Shown: piece by piece, positions 8,882-52,032 of the stretch | How the letters are laid out: every line of letters starts with the position of its first letter | Numbering within the stretch: the first letter of the stretch is position 1 | Origin: Candidatus Woesearchaeota archaeon | GTDB lineage: Archaea; Nanobdellota; Nanobdellia; Woesearchaeales; WJIZ01 | Direction: 5' to 3' | Assembly: GCA_018221205.1 (NCBI GenBank) | Contig: JAAOYF010000045.1 | Coordinates: 3,264 to 67,263 of the forward strand | Length of the DNA: 64,000 bases | Notes under the pieces: model-generated | What the model saw: only the letters and a program-made list of their open reading frames with translations | Database searches by the model: none | Told to the model about the DNA's origin: nothing | Program-made: the position numbers and the translations under genes

Positions 8882-10141
8882 ATGTTAATTTCTTTCAATG
8901 ATAAGATAGAACTGCTTGCGCATGCAAGCTTAGTACTTCCAGGAGTGAAGACAGATCTGAAGAAAAATACACTCAATCTTCTTGCGCAAGCTCTAGAGAG
9001 CCGGCAAGAGCAGATCATGAAGGCGAATGAAGAAGATGTGCAAGAGAAGAAAGGGAGGATTGATAAGAACAAATATCTGGAGATCATCAAAGGCATAAAG
9101 GAATTGGTCGAATTGGGTGAACCTACTGGCCAAACGCTGAAGACTGTGGAGCTGGATGAAGGATTCGAGCTCTACTGCATGAGCTGCCCCATAGGTATTA
9201 TCGGAGCGGTGCTGGATGAGAACCTTTTGGCCCTCCTGGAGATCATAGCATTATGCATCAAGTCAAGCAATGCGTTGATGGTGCACCTGCCAGAGAGCAA
9301 GACCGCTGAGAAGATCATGGAGCTTATCGGCAGTGTCTGTGGAGACTTGCCTGATGGCTGGCTTCAGATCATCAAGAAGAAGGAATTGAAGAAGATGTTC
9401 GATGCCCCTCTCGATCTGATGATCCCTATCGGCTCTCGGCAATTCGTAGATGATATCAGGCAGAGCACGAAGATTCCGATCATCGGCCATAAGGGAGGTG
9501 TGTGCCATATCTACGTCGATCAGGATGCCAACGTAGAGATGGCAGTCTCGATCTGTTATGATGCAAAATGCCAGAACCCACTTGCAAAAAATGCGATGGA
9601 AACGCTGCTGGTGCATACAGACATCGCTTCAGCATTCCTGAACAAGCTGAAAGAGACAATGGATGTTGCGCCGGTGAAATTTGTGGGGGATGATAATACT
9701 CTCAAGATATTAAGCATCGAGCATGCGAGAGAAAAAGATTGGGAGACTTCCTATCATGGATTGGCCCTTTCAATCAAGATAGTTACCAGCATTGATGAAG
9801 CGATTGACCATATCAACAGATTCGGCAGCAGCCATACTGATGCCATCGTAACGAGTTCTGACAGGAAAGCGAGGAAGTTCCTGGAGAAAGTCGACTCTGC
9901 TAATGTGTTCTGGAACTGCTCTACCCGTTTCTCTGACGGCTTCCGATATGGCATGGGTGCTGAAGTGACCACCTCGAGCTATAAGATCCACGCGCGCGGT
10001 CCTGTCGGACTGGAAGGATTAGTTACGTACAAATGGAAGCTCCTGGGCAAGGGAAATATCCTTGCAGATTATTCTGGAAAAGATCCGAAGAAAAAGTTCA
10101 ATCATAAATCAATGAGCAAGGATTTTCCCCTTAAAGAATAG
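8882..10141 (+). CDS. proA: Gamma-glutamyl phosphate reductase (glutamate-5-semialdehyde dehydrogenase).
   Basis: CSTRFSDGFRYGMGAEVTTSSYKIHARGPVGLEGLVTYKW is the ProA C-terminal signature. The N-terminal part is aldehyde-dehydrogenase-like. Confidence 0.85.
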   Translation: MLISFNDKIELLAHASLVLPGVKTDLKKNTLNLLAQALESRQEQIMKANEEDVQEKKGRIDKNKYLEIIKGIKELVELGEPTGQTLKTVELDEGFELYCMSCPIGIIGAVLDENLLALLEIIALCIKSSNALMVHLPESKTAEKIMELIGSVCGDLPDGWLQIIKKKELKKMFDAPLDLMIPIGSRQFVDDIRQSTKIPIIGHKGGVCHIYVDQDANVEMAVSICYDAKCQNPLAKNAMETLLVHTDIASAFLNKLKETMDVAPVKFVGDDNTLKILSIEHAREKDWETSYHGLALSIKIVTSIDEAIDHINRFGSSHTDAIVTSSDRKARKFLEKVDSANVFWNCSTRFSDGFRYGMGAEVTTSSYKIHARGPVGLEGLVTYKWKLLGKGNILADYSGKDPKKKFNHKSMSKDFPLKE

Positions 10142-10188: not shown

Positions 10189-12030
10189 ATGGCCAAAAAA
10201 AAGAAGGATAAAGTCGATGATGAATTAGCAAAGATGCCTATGCCGAAGCAGCCTGGCATGCCTGAGATGAGCAAGGAAGCTGAGGAGAAACTAAAATCTA
10301 TCAAGCAGAAGCTTGAGAAATTCAAGAACAAGGTCCTTGAGAAATTCGACAAATATATCATGGGCATCACCTTACTTCCTCCTCCTAAGCCGCGAGAGGG
10401 CGAGAAGATCAACAAGGATATGGTCTCTTTGCTCATTTTAGTCGATGATACTGACAGCAGAAAGATGACCAAATATGAATTGAGGTCGAAACTGCAGTCT
10501 ATCGTCGATAATCTCTCAAAAGAGATCGACAAGAATATTGTCCCTGATGTGGTTATCTTATCAGAACTGTGGCAGAACTGCTATGATGCAAAATATGATC
10601 TTCTTCAGCTGATCTCGATGGGTGCACCGATCCATGACACTGGCATGTTGGCAGCAATCAAGATTGCTGAGATCCATAAGACCATGGTGCTGAAGAAATT
10701 CGAGAAATATATCGTGAGCTATGTCTTAGCAGGCAGTCTGACACAAGGAAGGGCCACCAAGACGAGCGATATCGATGTATGGATTGTCATCGACGATACT
10801 GATGTCAAGAAGATGACCCGGGCCGAGTTAAAAGATAAATTGCGAGCCATCATCATCGGTATGGGCATCGAGGCCGGAGATATCACCGGCATCAAGAACA
10901 AATTGAATATCCAGGTGTATATCCTGACAGATTTCTGGGACAGCCTGAAAGAAGCAAACCCTATCATCTTTACCTTACTTAGGGATGGTGTTCCCTTCTA
11001 TGATCGCGGAATCTTTATGCCGTGGAAGCAATTATTGAAAATGGGAAAGATCAAGCCCTCTACAGAGGCTATCGACATGTTCATGAGCTCTGGAGAGCAG
11101 ATGCTGAAAAGGGTCGAATTCACGCTGAAGAACATCGGCATGGAAGATATCTACTATGCTATCCTGACGCCTTCACAGGCAGCTTTGATGCTCTATGGTA
11201 TACCTCCTCCAGCTCCACGGGAGACTGCTGAGCTGATGAAAGAGATATTTGTCAAGAAAGAGAAACTGCTCGAGGAGAAATTCGTGAATATCCTTGAGAG
11301 TAATATCAATATCCGGAAGGACATCGAGCACGGAGACAAGAAAGGCCTTACAGGAAAACAGGTCGATCAGCTGTTGAGTGACGCTGATAAATATCTCAAA
11401 AGAATCAAGCGTCTTTTTGGACAGATCGAGAAGATGAAAGAAGAGGAAGATATGGTCAAGATCTATGATAATGTCCTTACGATCATCAGAGATGTCATGC
11501 GGTTAGAAGGCATCGAGAAAGTCAGCGATGTTGAGATCGTGAATGTGTTCGAGAATGAGCTTATCTCTAAAGGCCTCATTCCAGCTAAATACCTTCGTAC
11601 GCTGAATGATATCATCAAAGCAAAGAAAGATTATGAGCAGAAGAAGCTGACGAAGCAGGAAGTGGAGATGGTGAAGAAAGAAAGCCGAAGCTTCATCAAA
11701 TATCTTGTTGAGCATATCCAGAGAAAGCGCGGAAGGGAGATGGAGCGAGCGAAGATACGTGTTAAATATGGTGATAAATTCGGAGAAGTGCTGCTGCTGG
11801 GCAAGAATGCGTTCATTGTGCATGATATTGATAAAGAGGAAAGAGAGATAACCAAAGGAAAAATAACTCCTGATGGGAAGATCGAGAATATTCAAAAGAG
11901 TTCACTTGAAGAGATGGAGAAGGCGATCGCCAAAGTTGAGATTCCAGAGAAAGTGTTCATCAAAGAGAGCATATTTGAGGACCTGAAGGGTTTATTCGGC
12001 AAAGATGTCAAGGTTATGGTGAATTTCTAA
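10189..12030 (+). CDS. Duplicated Pol-beta-type nucleotidyltransferase (MNT) protein with helical HEPN/KNTase-like domains, 613 aa.
   Basis: The second repeat has the intact motif GSLTQGRATKTSDIDVWIVIDDTD (GS-x-DxD). The first repeat (VSLLILVDDTDSRKMT) has lost the GS. Each repeat is followed by an alpha-helical domain. Confidence 0.6.
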   Translation: MAKKKKDKVDDELAKMPMPKQPGMPEMSKEAEEKLKSIKQKLEKFKNKVLEKFDKYIMGITLLPPPKPREGEKINKDMVSLLILVDDTDSRKMTKYELRSKLQSIVDNLSKEIDKNIVPDVVILSELWQNCYDAKYDLLQLISMGAPIHDTGMLAAIKIAEIHKTMVLKKFEKYIVSYVLAGSLTQGRATKTSDIDVWIVIDDTDVKKMTRAELKDKLRAIIIGMGIEAGDITGIKNKLNIQVYILTDFWDSLKEANPIIFTLLRDGVPFYDRGIFMPWKQLLKMGKIKPSTEAIDMFMSSGEQMLKRVEFTLKNIGMEDIYYAILTPSQAALMLYGIPPPAPRETAELMKEIFVKKEKLLEEKFVNILESNINIRKDIEHGDKKGLTGKQVDQLLSDADKYLKRIKRLFGQIEKMKEEEDMVKIYDNVLTIIRDVMRLEGIEKVSDVEIVNVFENELISKGLIPAKYLRTLNDIIKAKKDYEQKKLTKQEVEMVKKESRSFIKYLVEHIQRKRGREMERAKIRVKYGDKFGEVLLLGKNAFIVHDIDKEEREITKGKITPDGKIENIQKSSLEEMEKAIAKVEIPEKVFIKESIFEDLKGLFGKDVKVMVNF

Positions 12031-12042
12031 TAGGGTTTTTTG

Positions 12043-12054
12043 TATACTAGTATA
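12043..12054. promoter_or_regulatory. A 12-bp perfect palindrome TATACTAGTATA followed by the TATA box TTTTATATATAAA, upstream of the paralog operon.
   Basis: Read directly from the sequence. The palindrome lies about 45 nt and the TATA box about 20 nt before the ATG at 12098. Confidence 0.45.
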
Positions 12055-12097
12055 AAAAAACATAAACTTTTTATATATAAAGAGCTTTTGAGCCGTT

Positions 12098-12673
12098 ATG
12101 GCTAAATATAAGAATATTCAAACACAAGGTAAGCCAGTTCCAGGTGATCTGAAGATCCGTTTCAAAGGCACATGGGATATGCAGGATCTGTATGAAAGTG
12201 TTGCTCATTGGTTAAGGGATAGGAAATGGAAGTTCCATGAGAAGGAGATTGAACAGGAACCTCCTACTCCTTACGGCCAAGAAAAGAAGTATACGTGGTA
12301 TGCTGAGAGGGATATGGATGAATGGGTCAGATTGAAGCTGAATATCTTTATCCATACTTATGATCTGCAGGATATTGTGGTTGTGGGTAATGACGGTGGC
12401 CAGAAAACAGTCCAGAAAGGAAAGATGTGGATCTACATGAAGATCAATGATACCTGGGACTATGAAGAGAATTGGGATAAAAAAAGATTCTTCGGCCAGC
12501 TGAAAGATTTTTACATCAAGTATATCGTGAAAAAAAGAAGGATGCAAGGTTGGTCTCCTCGGACAAGGACTGAACTTGTACAGCTCTATCATTTCATCCA
12601 GAACAAACTGAAGACAGAATCAAGGCAATTTGAGCACAAGCACATCGCTGGTGTGCATAGGAGAGGGCCATGA
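12098..12673 (+). CDS. Paralog A of a four-member family of unknown function. About 190 aa, rich in W, Y, F and H.
   Basis: Shares RFKGTWDMQDLYE, W..RK.KFHEK and IHTYDLQDI blocks with paralog B. The A stop overlaps the B start (ATGA). Confidence 0.6.
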   Translation: MAKYKNIQTQGKPVPGDLKIRFKGTWDMQDLYESVAHWLRDRKWKFHEKEIEQEPPTPYGQEKKYTWYAERDMDEWVRLKLNIFIHTYDLQDIVVVGNDGGQKTVQKGKMWIYMKINDTWDYEENWDKKRFFGQLKDFYIKYIVKKRRMQGWSPRTRTELVQLYHFIQNKLKTESRQFEHKHIAGVHRRGP

Positions 12674-13290
12674 TGGGGAATATGGAGAAGAAGCTCCGGG
12701 AAAAACTCAGGAAAAAGATCAAATGGCAGTATGAACAATATAAGAGTGTAGGAAAGATCCCTCACCCCTTGTCCCATATCAGATTCAAAGGAGTGTGGGA
12801 CATGCAGGATCTGTATGAATTTGTCGCCAATTTCTTACGGGAGAGAAAATATAAGTTCCATGAGAAGATTTACAAGCACAAACACCCTTCGCCCTATGGT
12901 GTTGAGCAGCAATTAGTGTGGGAAGCCAACCAAGTTGTGGATGATGTCTATACCTATGTCATCAATTTTTATGTGCATACCTATGATGCCCAGGACATCC
13001 AAGTAAAGATGAAGGATGGCTCTGTGAGGACATTCACCAAAGGAAGGGTCTGGATCGAGATAACGAGCCATATCGACATGTATGAGCATATAGGCTTCGG
13101 GAAGAATGCGTTCCTCGCCTATCTGAAGATCGTCATGCAAAGCTATTTATTGAGAAAGAGGCATGGATGGATCGAATGGGATGTCATGATGTATCGAGAA
13201 GTGCAGAAGCTGATCTGGCTGATGAGAAGACGATTAAAGATGGAATATGATGAGTACGAACAGAAAGACTGGATGGGAGTGCATACCTGA
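12670..13290 (+). CDS. Paralog B of the same family.
   Basis: RFKGVWDMQDLYEFVANFLRERKYKFHEK...VHTYDAQDI. Its stop overlaps the start of C (TGATG). Confidence 0.6.
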   Translation: MMGNMEKKLREKLRKKIKWQYEQYKSVGKIPHPLSHIRFKGVWDMQDLYEFVANFLRERKYKFHEKIYKHKHPSPYGVEQQLVWEANQVVDDVYTYVINFYVHTYDAQDIQVKMKDGSVRTFTKGRVWIEITSHIDMYEHIGFGKNAFLAYLKIVMQSYLLRKRHGWIEWDVMMYREVQKLIWLMRRRLKMEYDEYEQKDWMGVHT

Positions 13291-13826
13291 TGGGTGAAGT
13301 CAATCAGGTTGTGGACCATCTGAAGCTCGAGTATAAGGGCATCTTCAATATCAAAGAGCTCTTCGGTATGTTCGGCAGATGGTATAAAGAAAGTCCGTAC
13401 GAAAAAGGAGGAGACTATATCTCTGAACAACGGACACACCATGGGAAATGCATCGAATATGTCTACTGGCCGTGGAAGAAACAGACTGACTATATCAGGC
13501 ATTACATGAAACTGAGGATATTGATCTATGATGCGAAAAAAGTGGATGTCATGGTCGATGGAAAGAAGCAACGGCTGGACCATGCCAGGTTTTTATTGTA
13601 CCTTGATGGGTTTGTCGAAAACGACTATGAGAGCAGGTGGAGAGATACTCCGTTGTTCATGTTCATCCGGACTCTGGCCTCAAAGTTTTTTTACAAGCGC
13701 TATGCAAAGTTCATGGAGAGGATGGTCATCGATGACTGCCATCACCTCTATGAGAAATTCGAACGGTTCTTCAACATGTACCGAAGCTTCAGACCAGTGA
13801 AGAAACAACCACACTTTTACTACTAA
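13290..13826 (+). CDS. Paralog C, a second subfamily of the same fold.
   Basis: LKLEYKGIFNIKELFGMFGRWYKE...LLYLDGFVENDYESRW...FMFIRTL aligns with paralog D and more distantly with A and B. Confidence 0.6.
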   Translation: MGEVNQVVDHLKLEYKGIFNIKELFGMFGRWYKESPYEKGGDYISEQRTHHGKCIEYVYWPWKKQTDYIRHYMKLRILIYDAKKVDVMVDGKKQRLDHARFLLYLDGFVENDYESRWRDTPLFMFIRTLASKFFYKRYAKFMERMVIDDCHHLYEKFERFFNMYRSFRPVKKQPHFYY

Positions 13827-13827
13827 A

Positions 13828-14325
13828 ATGGCAGAGAAAAAACTCGTTGTTGATGGGTTGCAGCTTACCTATACTGGAATGTTCGACATAGAAGAATTCT
13901 TCATGGAAGTGGACAGATGGATGGAAGGCCACCATATGGAACGGGAGATCAAGAAAAAACTGGAGCATGTCGAACAGCACGGCAAGAAGATGGAGTATAT
14001 CTTTGAATTGTGGGAGCAGCATGATTATTCTCGTGTTGTTGTCAGGATGAAGGCATTGTTCAGAGATGTGGTCGAATTTGATCTGAAGAGGAATGATGTT
14101 ACAAGACACATGCAGAAGGGGCATTGTCTTATTGTGATTGATGGGTTTGTCGAAGAGGATCTGGAGCATCGTTGGGTACAGAAGCCTGGTTTTGTCTTTA
14201 TCCGTACGTTATATGACAAACTGATCTGGAAATACTGGAGCAGTGCACATGATTCGCACTGCATCAAATTATCGAATGGACTCTATAATGAGTTATTGAA
14301 TTACTTTAAGAAGTATAAGTACTAA
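13828..14325 (+). CDS. Paralog D of the same family.
   Basis: LQLTYTGMFDIEEFFMEVDRWMEG...LIVIDGFVEEDLEHRW...FVFIRTL. It begins 1 nt after the C stop. Confidence 0.6.
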   Translation: MAEKKLVVDGLQLTYTGMFDIEEFFMEVDRWMEGHHMEREIKKKLEHVEQHGKKMEYIFELWEQHDYSRVVVRMKALFRDVVEFDLKRNDVTRHMQKGHCLIVIDGFVEEDLEHRWVQKPGFVFIRTLYDKLIWKYWSSAHDSHCIKLSNGLYNELLNYFKKYKY

Positions 14326-14326
14326 G

Positions 14327-14770
14327 ATGAAACAATACCTTGCACTTGTGGTTTTGATTTTGGTAGCTTGCACACCTCAAGCATTGTGCAATGCCCCTTA
14401 TTTTGAGTATAAGACTGGAGAATGCTGTCTGGACCAAGATGGAAATAATATCTGCGACAGTGATGAAAATGTAGTGGAGAAAGTCATTGAGGTGAAGCAA
14501 GAGGAGATACTCTATGATATCGATGTGGCGCGAAATAATGCTCTGGATGCGGCCAAAGAGTATGTCCGGTCCAACCGTATAGGCATCAGTCCTTCATTCA
14601 CCTTCCTTGAGGAAGAGATTAAAGAAGAGACATATACTGGAGTCTATCATATCAAGTATCTGGAGAATCTCAATGATTTCAATACTGGATATGTGAAAAC
14701 AAACTATGACCTTGTAGATGAAAAAGTCATTTCTGTAATTTTTGCACATGAATTGAGCGGGCTTGAGTAG
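14327..14770 (+). CDS. Small lipoprotein, co-operonic with the paralog cluster.
   Basis: Signal plus lipobox MKQYLALVVLILVAC. A Cys-rich N-terminal stretch CCLDQDGNNIC. Its start codon lies 1 nt after the D stop. Confidence 0.55.
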   Translation: MKQYLALVVLILVACTPQALCNAPYFEYKTGECCLDQDGNNICDSDENVVEKVIEVKQEEILYDIDVARNNALDAAKEYVRSNRIGISPSFTFLEEEIKEETYTGVYHIKYLENLNDFNTGYVKTNYDLVDEKVISVIFAHELSGLE

Positions 14771-14815: not shown

Positions 14816-14929
14816 GAGAGGGTAGCGAAGTCTGGTTAAACGCGCAGGACTTAAGAGGAACACCTAGTGTTGTACATTAGGAGATCCTGTCCCTTAGTGG
14901 GTCCGAGGGTTCAAATCCCTTCCCTCTCA
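14816..14929 (+). tRNA. tRNA-Leu with anticodon TAA and an intron of about 28 nt at the canonical position.
   Basis: Acceptor GAGAGGG/CCCTCTC. Anticodon stem CAGGA/TCCTG, loop CTTAAG|intron|A. Long variable arm. T-arm GAGGGTTCAAATCCCTT. A T-tract follows the 3' end. Confidence 0.75.
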
Positions 14930-14979: not shown

Positions 14980-15336
14980 ATGGCATCATTTGAACGTTCA
15001 AGAGAGAGAAAAGGTCGGAAAAAAGATTTTAGAGGTAATCCTTCACGAGGGGGTCCTAGAGGTCGAACAAGCAGTAGAGATAATTTTAGGGGCAAGCGTG
15101 ATTCTGACAAAGATTTCAAAAGGTCTGGTAGGCGTGAGTTGGAATTTACTAAAGTGATGTGCGCATCTTGTGGAGGTAAGTGTGAGGTGCCGTTCAAGCC
15201 GACAGGAAACAAACCTGTTTATTGCAGCGATTGTTTTAAGAAAGAGGATAAGCGAAGTTCCAGTAAGCCTTCTAACAAAGATTTTGATGTGATCAATGAA
15301 AAGCTTGACAAGATCATGGAAGCGTTAGGTCTTTAA
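14980..15336 (+). CDS. Arg/Lys-rich protein with a C-terminal CxxC...CxxC zinc ribbon.
   Basis: The N-terminus is a basic RG-rich low-complexity stretch. CASCGGKCEV...YCSDCFKK forms a four-Cys ribbon. Confidence 0.5.
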   Translation: MASFERSRERKGRKKDFRGNPSRGGPRGRTSSRDNFRGKRDSDKDFKRSGRRELEFTKVMCASCGGKCEVPFKPTGNKPVYCSDCFKKEDKRSSSKPSNKDFDVINEKLDKIMEALGL

Positions 15337-15406: not shown

Positions 15407-15519
15407 GCTCCCGTAGCTCAGCTGGTAGAGCGTTACCTTGGTAACTTCGAGCGAAGCAAGAAGGCTTGGAACGAAGTTCAAAGAGGTAAAGGTCCCGAGT
15501 TCAAATCTCGGCGGGGGCT
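15407..15519 (+). tRNA. tRNA-Thr with anticodon GGT and an intron of about 40 nt.
   Basis: Acceptor GCTCCCG/CGGGGGC. D-arm GCTCAGCTGGTAGAGC. Anticodon stem TTACC/GGTAA, loop TTGGTA|intron|A. T-arm CCGAGTTCAAATCTCGG. Confidence 0.75.
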
Positions 15520-15568: not shown

Positions 15569-16693
15569 ATGGCGTTGGAAGATAGTATCTATGATATTGA
15601 TTATTATATTGGTGTTTGTAGTGATGCAAACACTCTGGCCTTGGCTAGGTTATCGGAAACTAGCAGCGCCATACTTAATATCCTTTCTACAAGAAGATAT
15701 CCAAGATCTTCACATCTCCTTGATCACTATGCTCAGCTTTTATCAGCTCTAGAACATTTTGAAGAGGTATTTGCGGCAAGATCTAAAATGGGTGATGAAT
15801 TGCTCGCTACCTTAAAATCAAAGAGAGAGGGAATCACTTCCTTACTTAGACCTTCTCTTGAAACCCTCCATCACTTGTTCAATGGGGACCATCTTGAGGA
15901 CTGTCTCTACATGGATACGCTTCCAGAACCGATAAAAAGTGCGAAGGATACTGCTTTTTTCTATCTAGCTGGAAGAGATGATCTAACTGTGACTGAAGAG
16001 GGTATTGTGACAGTGGAAGAATGGATAAGGGTAGTTCATCGGTATACTGTATGGAATCTCGCTGTTCTTCATAGTGAAGAAGCAGAGTTTGGAGGAAAAC
16101 CCGCAACATACGTATTTGAGGACACTGGGATACCTTTCTGTGGGGTGGATGCTGATGCCTTTTTCTCCTCTTATTTACCTGAAATCAATCGAGCTATTGC
16201 TGACTTTGAGATAGCTCGTGGTGAAATCAAATTTGAAGATGTAATATTCACTAATCTCGGTTTTTCAGCATTCAAAAGAATAAAACATCATAATGCGCAA
16301 ATCCGTGTCATTTTAGACGGTGATCACTACCATATCCGATTCACTATGGGGGAGGCAGGTTATGGTACTAGTAGAGTTGAATATTGTAGTGAGCTCTTCA
16401 AACCAACGGAATTCACCCATAGAAGTGTCTACCATAATGTTCATAGCGCAACAGCAAGGACAGATGGAAGTACATTGCATCATGATATAACTTTTTTGCT
16501 TTGTGTAGCAGAAAACTTGACTGATGTGGATATTGGCTCAGGTCCTTGTCGACCAGAAGACTTCTATAGGAAATTCAGAATGATTTATGACGGTAAGACA
16601 CAACCAGAAGAACCAGGAAGACCGTTTAAAGTAGGCCATTTGGAAAACGGAGAACGTGTTTGTCATATCGGCTACACACTGTTTTCCTTTTGA
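15569..16693 (+). CDS. Hypothetical protein, 374 aa, lysine-poor and rich in His, Asp and Glu.
   Basis: Long ORF immediately 3' of tRNA-Thr. Its composition differs from the neighbouring K-rich genes. No recognisable motifs. Confidence 0.5.
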   Translation: MALEDSIYDIDYYIGVCSDANTLALARLSETSSAILNILSTRRYPRSSHLLDHYAQLLSALEHFEEVFAARSKMGDELLATLKSKREGITSLLRPSLETLHHLFNGDHLEDCLYMDTLPEPIKSAKDTAFFYLAGRDDLTVTEEGIVTVEEWIRVVHRYTVWNLAVLHSEEAEFGGKPATYVFEDTGIPFCGVDADAFFSSYLPEINRAIADFEIARGEIKFEDVIFTNLGFSAFKRIKHHNAQIRVILDGDHYHIRFTMGEAGYGTSRVEYCSELFKPTEFTHRSVYHNVHSATARTDGSTLHHDITFLLCVAENLTDVDIGSGPCRPEDFYRKFRMIYDGKTQPEEPGRPFKVGHLENGERVCHIGYTLFSF

Positions 16694-50688: not shown

Positions 50689-52032
50689 ATGGCACATATA
50701 GATGTCAGCTTTGTGACTGGGCTGTTGGATACTAAGCAAGATGTTCAGCTGCGAAAGCTCATCAAGAACTCGGAGATTCCTGATCTTGCTATCCTTATAG
50801 ACCAGCTCAAGGAAAGGCATAAGATCAAATTCTATCTCCTGTTTCCTTCCAAGATCTCTTCAGAAGTGCTGCTGGAAGTGAGCTCTCACTCTAGGCGATT
50901 TATCCTCAAAAGTATGAAGGATAAATATATTGTGAGCATGATCGAAGAAACTGCTTCTGATGACTCTGCAGATATCTTGAGTGAGGTTCCTGAGCATAAA
51001 TTGCCCCACATCCTCCAGCGGCTGACCAAAAAGAAGCAAGAGGCTTTAGAGCCAATCATGAAGCATGAAGAAGATACGGCTGGACACCTTATGCAGAGTG
51101 AACTTATTGAAGTTTATCAGTCTATACTTGTGAAGGATGCTATCGAACAAGTGAAAAAGCAACTTTCTAAAGTAGAAGGAGTCAACTATGTGTATGCTGT
51201 CGATAGTAATCATCGCTTAAAGGGTGTTGTTACGATCCATAATCTCTTCACTTCTTCTCCTCAGAAAAAGATTGCCCAGATCATGAACAAGAATGTTGTC
51301 ACTCTTCGGCCTGAGTTGAAGAAGAAGAAAGTTGCGGATGTGTTCATGAAAGAAGATATCCATGTGTTGCCAGTTGTCAATAAAAAAGGAGTCATAAGAG
51401 GAATTGTTACCGTAGATGATGTCCTTGATGTCATCGAGGAAGAGGCAACTGAGGATATGTTCCAGCTGGCAGGAGTGCATCCTGATGAGAGTCCTTTCGA
51501 TCCTTTATCAAAATCCTTGAAAAGAAGATTGCCTTGGCTGGTGATCAACCTCGGCACCTCTGTCCTTGCAGGATTGACGGTTGCTGCTTTTGCTGATACT
51601 CTTGGAGCACTTGTCATCCTGGCTGCATTCTTACCGATCATCGCAGGTATGGGAGGGAATGCTGGTACGCAAACACTCACTTTGATTGTTCGGGGACTTG
51701 CACTCAACCAATTGACTTTACATAACTATCAGAAAGTACTGTTGAAAGAGGTCCTTCTCGGACTTCTCAATGGACTCATCACTGGATTGGTGCTGGCAAT
51801 AGGCGTATACTTCTGGCTGGGCAATATCTTCATCAGCCTTGTTCTGTTGATGGCAATGACCATCAACTTAGTTGTTGCTGGCTTGATCGGTACATCAGTT
51901 CCGATCATCCTCAAACGCTTCAAAGTAGATCCTGCTGTAGCAAGCAGCATCTTCTTGACAACCTTCACCGATGTTATCGGATTTCTTGCTTACCTAGGAA
52001 TAGCTACGCTTTTCTTGCACTGGATCGTTTAA
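50689..52032 (+). CDS. mgtE: Magnesium transporter MgtE.
   Basis: N-domain, CBS pair, and a 5-TM MgtE domain with GNAGTQ. Confidence 0.9.
   Translation: MAHIDVSFVTGLLDTKQDVQLRKLIKNSEIPDLAILIDQLKERHKIKFYLLFPSKISSEVLLEVSSHSRRFILKSMKDKYIVSMIEETASDDSADILSEVPEHKLPHILQRLTKKKQEALEPIMKHEEDTAGHLMQSELIEVYQSILVKDAIEQVKKQLSKVEGVNYVYAVDSNHRLKGVVTIHNLFTSSPQKKIAQIMNKNVVTLRPELKKKKVADVFMKEDIHVLPVVNKKGVIRGIVTVDDVLDVIEEEATEDMFQLAGVHPDESPFDPLSKSLKRRLPWLVINLGTSVLAGLTVAAFADTLGALVILAAFLPIIAGMGGNAGTQTLTLIVRGLALNQLTLHNYQKVLLKEVLLGLLNGLITGLVLAIGVYFWLGNIFISLVLLMAMTINLVVAGLIGTSVPIILKRFKVDPAVASSIFLTTFTDVIGFLAYLGIATLFLHWIV

What the first reader, a model, noticed from the sequence alone, without database searches (positions are those of the whole stretch)
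12043..14770. Translationally coupled operon of four paralogous W/Y/F/H-rich proteins of unrecognised family, plus a lipoprotein
Four consecutive ORFs of 165-206 aa are clearly homologous to each other. There are two subfamilies: A/B share RFKG(T/V)WDMQDLYE...KFHEK...(I/V)HTYD(L/A)QDI, and C/D share Y(K/T)G(I/M)F(N/D)I(K/E)E(L/F)F...(L/I)DGFVE(N/E)D(Y/L)E(S/H)RW...F(M/V)FIRTL. Their stop and start codons overlap or abut (ATGA, TGATG, +1, +1). A fifth coupled gene encodes a lipobox lipoprotein. None has a transmembrane helix, signal peptide or motif I can assign to a known family. The beta-rich, aromatic-rich ~20 kDa units suggest a ligand-binding or self-assembling fold. The operon has its own promoter with a 12-bp palindrome and a strong TATA box. 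It sits directly after a duplicated nucleotidyltransferase gene.
Basis: seen in the sequence. Interest (0 to 1): 0.8.

Follow-up and report, generated by a model that had tools for sequence, protein, structure and literature searches.

The report
Conserved orphan paralog operon in Woesearchaeota
Four back-to-back genes in a tiny symbiotic archaeon (Woesearchaeota) encode related proteins of a large family that no database describes. The family is strongly conserved, usually sits next to a DPANN-signature nucleotidyltransferase/RNase-like gene, and probably forms a multi-subunit complex whose function is still unknown.

Summary
Four translationally coupled ORFs, A 12098-12673, B 12670-13290, C 13290-13826 and D 13828-14325, are paralogs of two ancient types, A/B and C/D (profile-profile probability 99.6%).

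They are rich in aromatic residues and histidine (18-25%) and have no membrane segments. They match nothing in Pfam, NCBIfam, PHROGs, PADLOC or PDB sequences.

The family is large: about 1,900 clusters at 50% identity. Every named record is from Woesearchaeota, Nanoarchaeota or Pacearchaeota. It occurs as ordered arrays of 1-4 genes, always AB-type before CD-type, and is more conserved than the enzyme proA.

In 21 of 32 informative loci it follows the very highly conserved MNT-HEPN fusion gene (10189-12030). This is probably the DPANN-specific "NEQ050" family noted by Makarova et al. 2019. A CBS/zinc-ribbon gene often lies in between.

The promoter palindrome and TATA box are conserved in six lineages. 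The lipoprotein gene is a local add-on, not part of the conserved unit.

My best reading is a stoichiometric hetero-oligomeric accessory or scaffold complex that works with the MNT-HEPN enzyme. The function is not established.

The parts
10189..12030 (+). Linked upstream gene (NT): a 613-aa fusion protein. In order it has a degenerate NTase-like repeat, an intact MNT/KNTase-type nucleotidyltransferase, a HEPN domain with invariant R376-x4-H381, a helical domain and a small C-terminal alpha/beta domain.
   Evidence: - Pfam NTP_transf_2 hit.
- The profile matches the UPF0332 HEPN protein AF0298.
- AF2 model pLDDT 78.
- The 120 listed relatives share at least 71% identity, out of 4,234 clusters at E<=0.001.
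- It lies upstream of the paralog array in 21 of 32 informative loci.
12042..12054 (.). Palindrome GTATACTAGTATA, a probable transcription-factor site just upstream of the BRE/TATA region.
   Evidence: Sequence and inverted repeats. It is unique in the window, with 0.09 matches expected by chance. The core ATACTAnTATA recurs once per locus, directly upstream of the first paralog gene, in five further species-level lineages: L002, L005, L007, L016 and L017. L001 carries a one-base variant.
12068..12079 (+). TATA-box-like element about 20-30 nt before the ATG. This spacing is consistent with a leaderless or near-leaderless archaeal transcript.
   Evidence: Sequence. TTTTATA(G/T) aligns in all five syntenic genomes. 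The transcription start is inferred, not measured.
12098..12673 (+). Paralog A (191 aa, AB-type, pI 9.6).
   Evidence: ORF. 39% identical to B. Orthologs share 48-57% identity. No library hit.
12670..13290 (+). Paralog B (206 aa, AB-type, basic N-terminal extension). Its start overlaps A's stop (ATGA).
   Evidence: Orthologs in syntenic loci share 55-66% identity.
13290..13826 (+). Paralog C (178 aa, CD-type). Its start overlaps B's stop (TGATG).
   Evidence: Orthologs share 60-74% identity. AF2 model pLDDT 84.6 with beta-alpha-beta4-alpha topology.
13828..14325 (+). Paralog D (165 aa, CD-type, pI 6.6), one base after C's stop.
   Evidence: Orthologs share 54-64% identity.
14327..14770 (+). 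Gene E (147 aa): signal peptide plus a lipobox-like LVAC, Cys- and Asp-rich, acidic. It is coupled to D in this genome but is not part of the conserved unit.
   Evidence: Its only relative among 61 loci is a 64-residue match in L019 (E 4e-6). Downstream genes differ in nearly all loci.

Best explanation
A, B, C and D are subunits of one cytoplasmic, soluble hetero-oligomeric complex specific to Woesearchaeota, Pacearchaeota and related Nanoarchaeota.

The complex is built from two ancient paralog types. The AB-type is always encoded first and the CD-type second. In this lineage each type has duplicated once, giving four genes.

Each subunit is predicted as a two-layer alpha/beta domain with beta-alpha-beta4-alpha topology. 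A short helix and a 42-residue aromatic helix cover one face of a long five-stranded sheet. The other face carries a conserved ladder of Lys/Arg and Glu/Asp residues, which I take to be the interaction surface.

The genes are transcribed from their own regulated promoter (conserved palindrome plus TATA box). Translational coupling would deliver fixed stoichiometry.

I propose that the complex acts as an accessory module (scaffold, adaptor or substrate-presenting partner) for the neighbouring, extremely conserved MNT-HEPN enzyme. In most lineages a CBS/zinc-ribbon nucleotide sensor would also take part, in a housekeeping RNA- or nucleotide-linked process.

**Shown:** paralogy, conservation, gene order, genomic linkage, predicted fold, and absence from known families.

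**Inferred:** physical assembly, the functional link to MNT-HEPN and CBS, and the binding role.
For: **Real, selected genes.**
- 1,898 representatives of 50%-identity clusters match at E<=0.001.
- In the closest syntenic genomes A-D orthologs are 48-74% identical, while the enzyme proA is only 43-51%.

**Fixed order and variable copy number.**
- AB-type always precedes CD-type. The patterns are AB-C-D in 22 loci, A-B-C-D in 8 (the window included), AB'-C or AB-C in 12, and a singleton in a Pacearchaeota genome.
- Start and stop codons overlap or abut.
- This is the pattern expected for paralogous subunits of one complex.

**Linkage.**
- The MNT-HEPN gene lies on the same strand within 4 kb upstream in 21 of 32 loci. 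A CBS/Zn-ribbon gene lies immediately upstream in 13 of 32.
- The outer flanks differ widely between loci: proline genes, PolB, Rad50, a glycosyltransferase and others.

**Neighbouring enzyme.**
- The catalytic motifs of MNT-HEPN are invariant: G182-S183, D194/D196 and R376-x4-H381.
- Its NTase plus HEPN fold is confirmed.
- Makarova et al. 2019 (PMC6393860) describe a DPANN-specific MNT-HEPN fusion 'typically in house-keeping context'.

**Subunit features.**
- No residue is invariant across the 150-sequence family alignment, and only M1, G17 and W117 are nearly invariant (>=90%). This argues for a binding or structural role rather than an enzyme.
- The conserved charged residues lie at alternating positions on the strands.
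- The proteins are soluble and have no TM segment.

**Promoter.** The promoter elements are conserved in six lineages.
Against: - There is no direct evidence of assembly; a multimer prediction could not be run.
- Nine of 32 informative loci have neither the MNT-HEPN nor the CBS gene nearby. Linkage is therefore frequent but not obligatory.
- The MNT-HEPN family reportedly extends more widely across DPANN than the paralog family appears to. The enzyme therefore does not need these proteins everywhere.
- A singleton form exists.
- The weak structural neighbours include many lipid or small-molecule binders, which fits a different role.
- Basic pI is common in these proteomes; the MNT-HEPN protein itself has pI 9.0.
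Confidence: 0.4

Rival explanations
1. The proteins are carriers of hydrophobic ligands or lipids. Each paralog would be a divergent helix-grip (SRPBCC/START/Bet v1-like) protein that holds a lipid, isoprenoid or other hydrophobic molecule between the sheet and the long C-terminal helix. This would be relevant to archaea that must scavenge lipids from a host.
For: - The best Foldseek rows are PYL10 and PYL3.
- The proteins are aromatic-rich.
- A long amphipathic C-terminal helix packs on the sheet.
Against: - No Foldseek hit reaches E<=0.001, and TM-scores are 0.32 or less.
- The topology lacks the second helix and two strands of the canonical helix-grip.
- No Pfam SRPBCC-type hit appears in 150+58 members.
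- The proteins are very hydrophilic (GRAVY -0.55 to -1.07).
- This reading does not explain the fixed paralog order or the linkage to MNT-HEPN and CBS.
Confidence: 0.15
2. The proteins form a self-assembling or membrane-peripheral scaffold that works independently of the MNT-HEPN enzyme. The paralogs would polymerise or dock on the inner face of the membrane through basic surfaces, as KA1 domains do. The adjacency to MNT-HEPN would be inherited synteny only.
For: - A, B and C are basic.
- In the two-gene lineages the AB' proteins carry a conserved N-terminal amphipathic peptide, KRGFLQGILQSIPxxG, followed by a Pro-rich linker.
- Here and in two other loci a lipoprotein-like gene follows the array.
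- Nine of 32 loci lack the MNT-HEPN and CBS neighbours.
Against: - The amphipathic peptide is confined to one clade.
- There is no evidence of polymer formation.
- The NT-(CBS)-paralog block persists while its flanks turn over, which argues for selection on the linkage.
- The structural similarity to KA1 is no stronger than to many other folds.
Confidence: 0.15
3. The cluster is an accessory part of a toxin-antitoxin or anti-virus defence module, or cargo of a mobile element, with the MNT-HEPN pair as its core.
For: - The NTase region hits PADLOC candidate systems weakly (PDC-S09, E 8e-5).
Against: - A-D have no PADLOC or PHROG hit.
- No relative was found in 2.9 million viral contigs.
- The module is vertically inherited, very highly conserved (the 120 listed MNT-HEPN relatives are at least 71% identical) and embedded in housekeeping genes. 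This is the opposite of the patchy distribution of defence islands. Makarova et al. make the same point.
Confidence: 0.05

Closest known systems
SRPBCC / START / Bet v 1 helix-grip superfamily
   Different: - No sequence or profile similarity.
- Foldseek TM of 0.32 or less and no E<=0.001.
- One helix and two strands fewer, and much longer strands.
- No evidence of a cavity.
- It occurs as ordered paralog arrays.
TBP-like fold, including KA1 domains and the AMPK alpha C-terminal domain
   Different: The domains here are about twice as long. There is no detectable sequence relationship. Similarity scores are no better than to unrelated alpha+beta folds. The AMPK analogy is architectural only and untested.
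DPANN-specific MNT-HEPN fusion family (cls.004259, NEQ050; Makarova, Wolf and Koonin 2019, PMC6393860). This applies to the neighbouring gene, not to A-D.
   Same: A fusion of a minimal nucleotidyltransferase and HEPN, conserved across DPANN and found in housekeeping context. The gene at 10189-12030 has exactly these domains and this conservation.
   Different: Identity with NEQ050 itself was not tested because no sequence was available. The paper does not mention the paralog array or the CBS gene as partners.
Type VII toxin-antitoxin HepT/MntA
   Same: The same two folds. The NTase G-S/DxD and HEPN Rx4H motifs are both retained.
   Different: Here they are fused in one 613-aa chain with an extra degenerate NTase repeat and two further domains. 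The gene is vertically inherited and highly conserved rather than patchy, and it is followed by the paralog operon.

Membership tests
SRPBCC/START/Bet v 1 superfamily (A-D) | Significant sequence or profile match to a member family (Pfam Polyketide_cyc, START, Bet_v_1, AHSA1 and similar). | tested here: not met
   None of the four window proteins has a hit reaching its Pfam cutoff. The same holds for 150 diverse members and 58 AB-type members. PDB profile searches found nothing.
SRPBCC/START/Bet v 1 superfamily (A-D) | Helix-grip fold: beta-alpha-alpha-beta6-alpha, with strong structural superposition on members. | tested here: inconclusive
SRPBCC/START/Bet v 1 superfamily (A-D) | A deep hydrophobic ligand-binding cavity between the sheet and the C-terminal helix. 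| not testable with these tools
TBP-like fold / KA1 domain (A-D) | beta-alpha-beta4-alpha topology with both helices on one face of an antiparallel sheet. | tested here: inconclusive
Phage or virus structural proteins (A-D) | Homologs in viral genomes or viral protein families. | tested here: not met
   No PHROG hit. No relative in the IMG/VR contigs.
Known anti-phage defence systems (A-D) | A match to a PADLOC model. | tested here: not met
   No hit for A-D or E.
MNT/KNTase-type nucleotidyltransferase (gene 10189-12030) | hG[GS] motif plus DxD carboxylates in a Pol-beta-type fold. | tested here: met
   - G182, S183, D194 and D196 are invariant in 41 sequences.
- Pfam NTP_transf_2 scores above its cutoff.
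HEPN domain (gene 10189-12030) | A four-helix HEPN fold with the Rx4-6H motif. | tested here: met
Type VII toxin-antitoxin system (gene 10189-12030) | Two separate genes (toxin HepT, antitoxin MntA) with patchy, mobile distribution. | tested here: not met
   It is a single fused 613-aa protein. The 120 listed relatives share at least 71% identity, out of 4,234 clusters at E<=0.001. It sits in conserved housekeeping synteny.
Lipoprotein (gene E) | An N-terminal signal peptide ending in a lipobox [LVI][ASTVI][GAS]C. | tested here: met
   The N-terminus reads MKQYLALVVLILVAC, and the highest KD19 is 2.05 at residues 5-23. Whether this archaeon lipidates such sites is unknown.
Conserved five-gene unit (A-D plus lipoprotein) | A lipoprotein gene present downstream of the array in related genomes. 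| tested here: not met
   Only 3 of about 50 loci have a lipobox-like downstream gene. Only one of them shares any similarity with E.

The most novel reading that the evidence does not exclude
The MNT-HEPN enzyme, the CBS/zinc-ribbon protein and the AB/CD paralog hetero-oligomer could be parts of one lineage-specific, essential machine. It would have arisen by domestication of a toxin-antitoxin pair. Its architecture would resemble the AMPK core: a CBS nucleotide sensor docked on a KA1-like beta-sheet scaffold. That assembly would control a conserved HEPN RNase/NTase acting on RNA. If so, it would be a previously unrecognised housekeeping system in the most abundant DPANN archaea.
Probability: 0.12. 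Interest if true: 0.85.

Novelty: new variant of a known kind. Interest (0 to 1): 0.6.

Why it matters
Woesearchaeota and Pacearchaeota are among the most widespread uncultured archaea, and much of their small genomes is unannotated.

This cluster is a large family of about 1,900 clusters at 50% identity that is missing from Pfam, NCBIfam and the PDB. It evolves more slowly than a core metabolic enzyme. It is also tied to what may be the most conserved 'dark' gene of DPANN archaea, the MNT-HEPN fusion.

That gives a concrete, testable handle on a lineage-defining function. The test would use four small soluble proteins, one enzyme and one sensor.

It also gives the long-noted MNT-HEPN puzzle its first candidate partners.

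At the fold level nothing new is claimed. At the family and operon level there is no described counterpart.

Tried and rejected
- **Library scans.** A-D and E have no hit that reaches a curated cutoff in Pfam or NCBIfam, and none in PHROGs or PADLOC. Pfam scans of 150 and 58 family members gave only scattered single chance hits.
- **PDB sequence searches.** Three profiles returned only chance rows: DUF1348 (E 0.5), VapW (E 0.017 over 40 residues) and Pumilio (E 0.3).
- **Structure searches.** Foldseek against AFDB50 was unavailable. Foldseek against the PDB gave nothing significant.
- **Locus scans.** The C-type alignment A4 worked.
- **Viral origin.** Rejected.
- **Other linked genes.** Pfam scans of recurrent neighbours found only unrelated housekeeping genes: a Rad50-like ATPase, a glycosyltransferase and an aminotransferase.
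- **CBS gene in the window.** The window has no ortholog of the CBS/Zn-ribbon gene. The only hit was an unrelated CBS-containing transporter-like ORF at 50734-52017.
- **Literature.** Searches for a prior description of the paralog family found none. The NEQ050 text search returned only DOI collisions.
- **Not possible with these tools.** Multimer prediction, cavity analysis and a second subunit model.
Full report
**1. What is in the sequence**

The window comes from a Candidatus Woesearchaeota MAG. Identical proteins carry NCBI tags GOV09_05325 to 05345. Two intron-containing tRNA genes fit an archaeon.

| Gene | Coordinates | Length |
|---|---|---|
| A | 12098-12673 | 191 aa |
| B | 12670-13290 | 206 aa |
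| C | 13290-13826 | 178 aa |
| D | 13828-14325 | 165 aa |
| E | 14327-14770 | 147 aa |

- The junctions are ATGA, TGATG, and one spacer base twice.
- A/B are 39% identical (E 2e-37), C/D 33% (E 3e-27) and A/C 21% (E 2e-7).
- Profiles of the two types align over 159 columns with hhalign probability 99.6% and E 5e-24.
- W+Y+F+H is 18-25% in A-D, against 10.6% with sd 3.2 for the long ORFs of the window.
- A-D are hydrophilic. A, B and C are basic (pI 9.4-9.6) and D is near neutral (pI 6.6). None has a TM-like segment.
- E has a signal peptide ending in LVAC.

**2. How big and how old the family is**

- A word-seeded search found 52 relatives. They fall into orthologs of A (50-57% identity), C (60-74%) and D (54-64%).
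- An exhaustive HMMER search with a 50-sequence profile found 1,898 representatives of 50%-identity clusters at E<=0.001, and 1,199 at E<=1e-10.
- Neither the four window proteins, nor 150 diverse members, nor 58 AB-type members match any Pfam family. NCBIfam, PHROGs, PADLOC and PDB sequence profiles are also negative.
- All 49 species-level genome loci are MAGs titled Woesearchaeota, Nanoarchaeota or Nanoarchaeia, or carry a submitter title 'uncultured Methanosarcinales'. That title looks like a placeholder: for example L019 encodes an MNT-HEPN protein 74% identical to the window's.
- One distant member is from Pacearchaeota.
- No relative exists in the viral contig collection.

**3. Anatomy of the locus across genomes**

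I called ORFs in all fetched loci and labelled them with family profiles.

- The paralogs always occur in the order AB-type then CD-type.
- The patterns are AB-C-D (22 loci), A-B-C-D (8 loci, the window included) and AB'-C or AB-C (12 loci). A Pacearchaeota genome has a single intermediate copy, and one further locus has three copies.
- The ancestral state is therefore one or two genes. The four-gene form is a derived duplication of both types.
- In the four closest syntenic genomes the orthologs are 48-54% (A), 56-66% (B), 64-74% (C) and 56-60% (D) identical.
- In the three of those genomes where a proA ortholog was found, the neighbouring enzyme proA (gamma-glutamyl-phosphate reductase) is only 43-51% identical. 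These small proteins are therefore under strong purifying selection.
- E is not conserved. Downstream genes differ almost everywhere. Only L019 and L041 have another lipobox-like gene in that position.

**4. The conserved neighbours**

*The upstream 613-aa gene (10189-12030).* In 21 of 32 loci with enough upstream sequence, its ortholog lies on the same strand within 4 kb of the first paralog.

- It is very highly conserved. The 120 best relatives listed share at least 71% identity, out of 4,234 clusters matched at E<=0.001. It keeps 59-67% identity in lineages where C is only about 35% identical.
- G182, S183, D194, D196 and R376-K377-x-x-E380-H381 (Rx4H) are invariant.
[quoted passage not shown] Makarova, Wolf and Koonin listed it as a priority unknown (PMC6393860). 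Identity with NEQ050 itself was not tested.

*The CBS/zinc-ribbon gene.* In 13 of 32 loci an orthologous CBS-pair protein of about 183 aa, with a C-terminal zinc ribbon, sits between this gene and the paralogs. The window lacks it.

*The outer flanks.* Outside the NT-(CBS)-paralog block the genes differ from lineage to lineage: proline genes, PolB, Rad50-like, a glycosyltransferase, an aminotransferase, an AI-2E transporter. The block itself is what is retained. Nine of 32 loci have neither neighbour, so the linkage is frequent but not obligatory.

**5. Promoter**

The 67-bp spacer holds the palindrome GTATACTAGTATA (12042-12054) and TTTTTATATATA (12068-12079), ahead of the ATG at 12098.

- The palindrome is unique in the window.
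- Both elements align in the syntenic genomes.
- The core ATACTAnTATA occurs once per locus, directly upstream of the first paralog gene, in five further species-level lineages. This holds even where another gene separates the NTase gene from the array, as in L016.
- This points to a regulated, separate and probably leaderless transcript. The transcription start is inferred, not measured.

**6. Fold**

The AF2 model of C used a 50-sequence alignment and has pLDDT 84.6 and pTM 0.74. It gives E3-19, H21-34, E38-49, E52-64, E69-89, E92-111 and H121-162. That is a beta-alpha-beta4-alpha topology with unusually long strands and a 42-residue C-terminal helix.

- Foldseek against the PDB finds nothing at E<=0.001, and TM-scores are 0.32 or less.
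- Column statistics over 80 CD-type sequences show one hydrophobic, aromatic face on the strands and along the whole C-terminal helix.
- The alternate strand positions carry conserved charged residues: K5, D9, K12, E46, K53, E56, R70, R74 and R76.
- No residue is invariant across the 150-sequence family alignment, and only M1, G17 and W117 are nearly invariant at 90% or more. This suggests a binding or structural role rather than catalysis.
- In the two-gene lineages the AB' proteins carry a conserved N-terminal amphipathic peptide (KRGFLQGILQSIPxxG) and a Pro-rich linker.

**7. Interpretation**

The data best fit paralogous subunits of one stoichiometric cytoplasmic complex. The supporting points are fixed gene order, translational coupling, duplication of subunit types and strong conservation.

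Recurrent linkage suggests that the complex works with the MNT-HEPN enzyme and the CBS sensor. I give this composite reading 0.4. Complex formation alone I would rate at about 0.6. None of the physical steps has been shown.

The rivals are:
- Hydrophobic-ligand carriers of helix-grip type (0.15). The nature of the weak structural neighbours supports this. The poor superposition, the missing helix-grip elements, the hydrophilicity and the unexplained operon logic argue against it.
- A membrane-peripheral or self-assembling scaffold unrelated to the enzyme (0.15).
- A toxin-antitoxin, defence or mobile module (0.05). Vertical inheritance, extreme conservation and absence from viral and defence libraries contradict it.

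**8. Novelty**

The neighbouring MNT-HEPN fusion has been noted before as an unexplained DPANN signature.

I found no description of the paralog family, of its ordered arrays, or of its linkage to MNT-HEPN and CBS in the searched literature or in the domain libraries.

The fold class is not new, but the family and the operon have no described counterpart. I rate the finding a new variant of a known kind: an orphan family with a TBP-like/helix-grip-like alpha+beta domain. Interest is 0.6. It is a well-defined, strongly selected unknown in a major uncultured lineage, and its function is still open.

Noticed in passing
window 14816-14929 and 15407-15519 (+): Rfam detects two tRNA genes of 113-114 nt (55.7 and 47.6 bits), but ARAGORN reports none. 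They presumably carry archaeal introns. The first lies 46 nt after gene E, behind its own TATA-like element.
   Followed up: partly
window 10189-12030 (+): The MNT-HEPN fusion protein is exceptionally conserved: the 120 best relatives listed share at least 71% identity, out of 4,234 clusters at E<=0.001. Long stretches are invariant, including the NTase G-S/DxD and HEPN Rx4H motifs. Its N-terminal 25-100 residues are a variable Lys/Pro/Gln-rich disordered tail.
   Followed up: yes
L009:6245-6796, L018:4235-4810, L019:4888-5403 and 15 other loci: An orthologous CBS-pair protein with a C-terminal zinc ribbon (EGxCxxCG...LxCxxC) sits immediately upstream of the paralog array in many lineages. It is absent from this 64-kb window.
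   Followed up: partly
L043:5366-5998, L044:3688-4353, L055:5310-5999 and 5 others: In lineages with only two paralogs, the first protein has a conserved N-terminal amphipathic peptide (KRGFLQGILQSIPxxG) and a Pro-rich linker. This could be a membrane- or partner-binding tag.
   Followed up: no
L062:7001-8921: A Pacearchaeota genome has a single family member, intermediate between the AB and CD types. It is followed 32 nt later by a 461-aa protein with a signal peptide and a TM segment.
   Followed up: partly
loci L019, L021, L023, L026, L031-L034, L036, L040, L041 and others: About 18 GenBank TPA records titled 'uncultured Methanosarcinales archaeon' carry this Woesearchaeota-type gene block. 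For example, L019 encodes an MNT-HEPN protein 74% identical to the window's. The organism label is probably a placeholder or an error.
   Followed up: no
P0042: One D-type ortholog is named 'putative SOS response-associated peptidase YedK' by JGI. No SRAP domain was detected in the family, so this looks like an annotation error.
   Followed up: no
window 14980-15336 (+) and 15569-16693 (+): The first is a 118-aa protein with an Arg/Lys-rich N-terminus and a treble-clef zinc finger (PF23477, E 1.5e-16). The second is a 374-aa ORF with no Pfam match. Both lie just downstream of the operon, between and after the tRNA genes.
   Followed up: no
window 8882-10141 (+) compared with L001:563-3808 and L005:1214-4343: In two related genomes proC, proA and proB precede the MNT-HEPN gene. 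In the window proA abuts it directly and no proB (amino-acid kinase) ORF lies between them.
   Followed up: no
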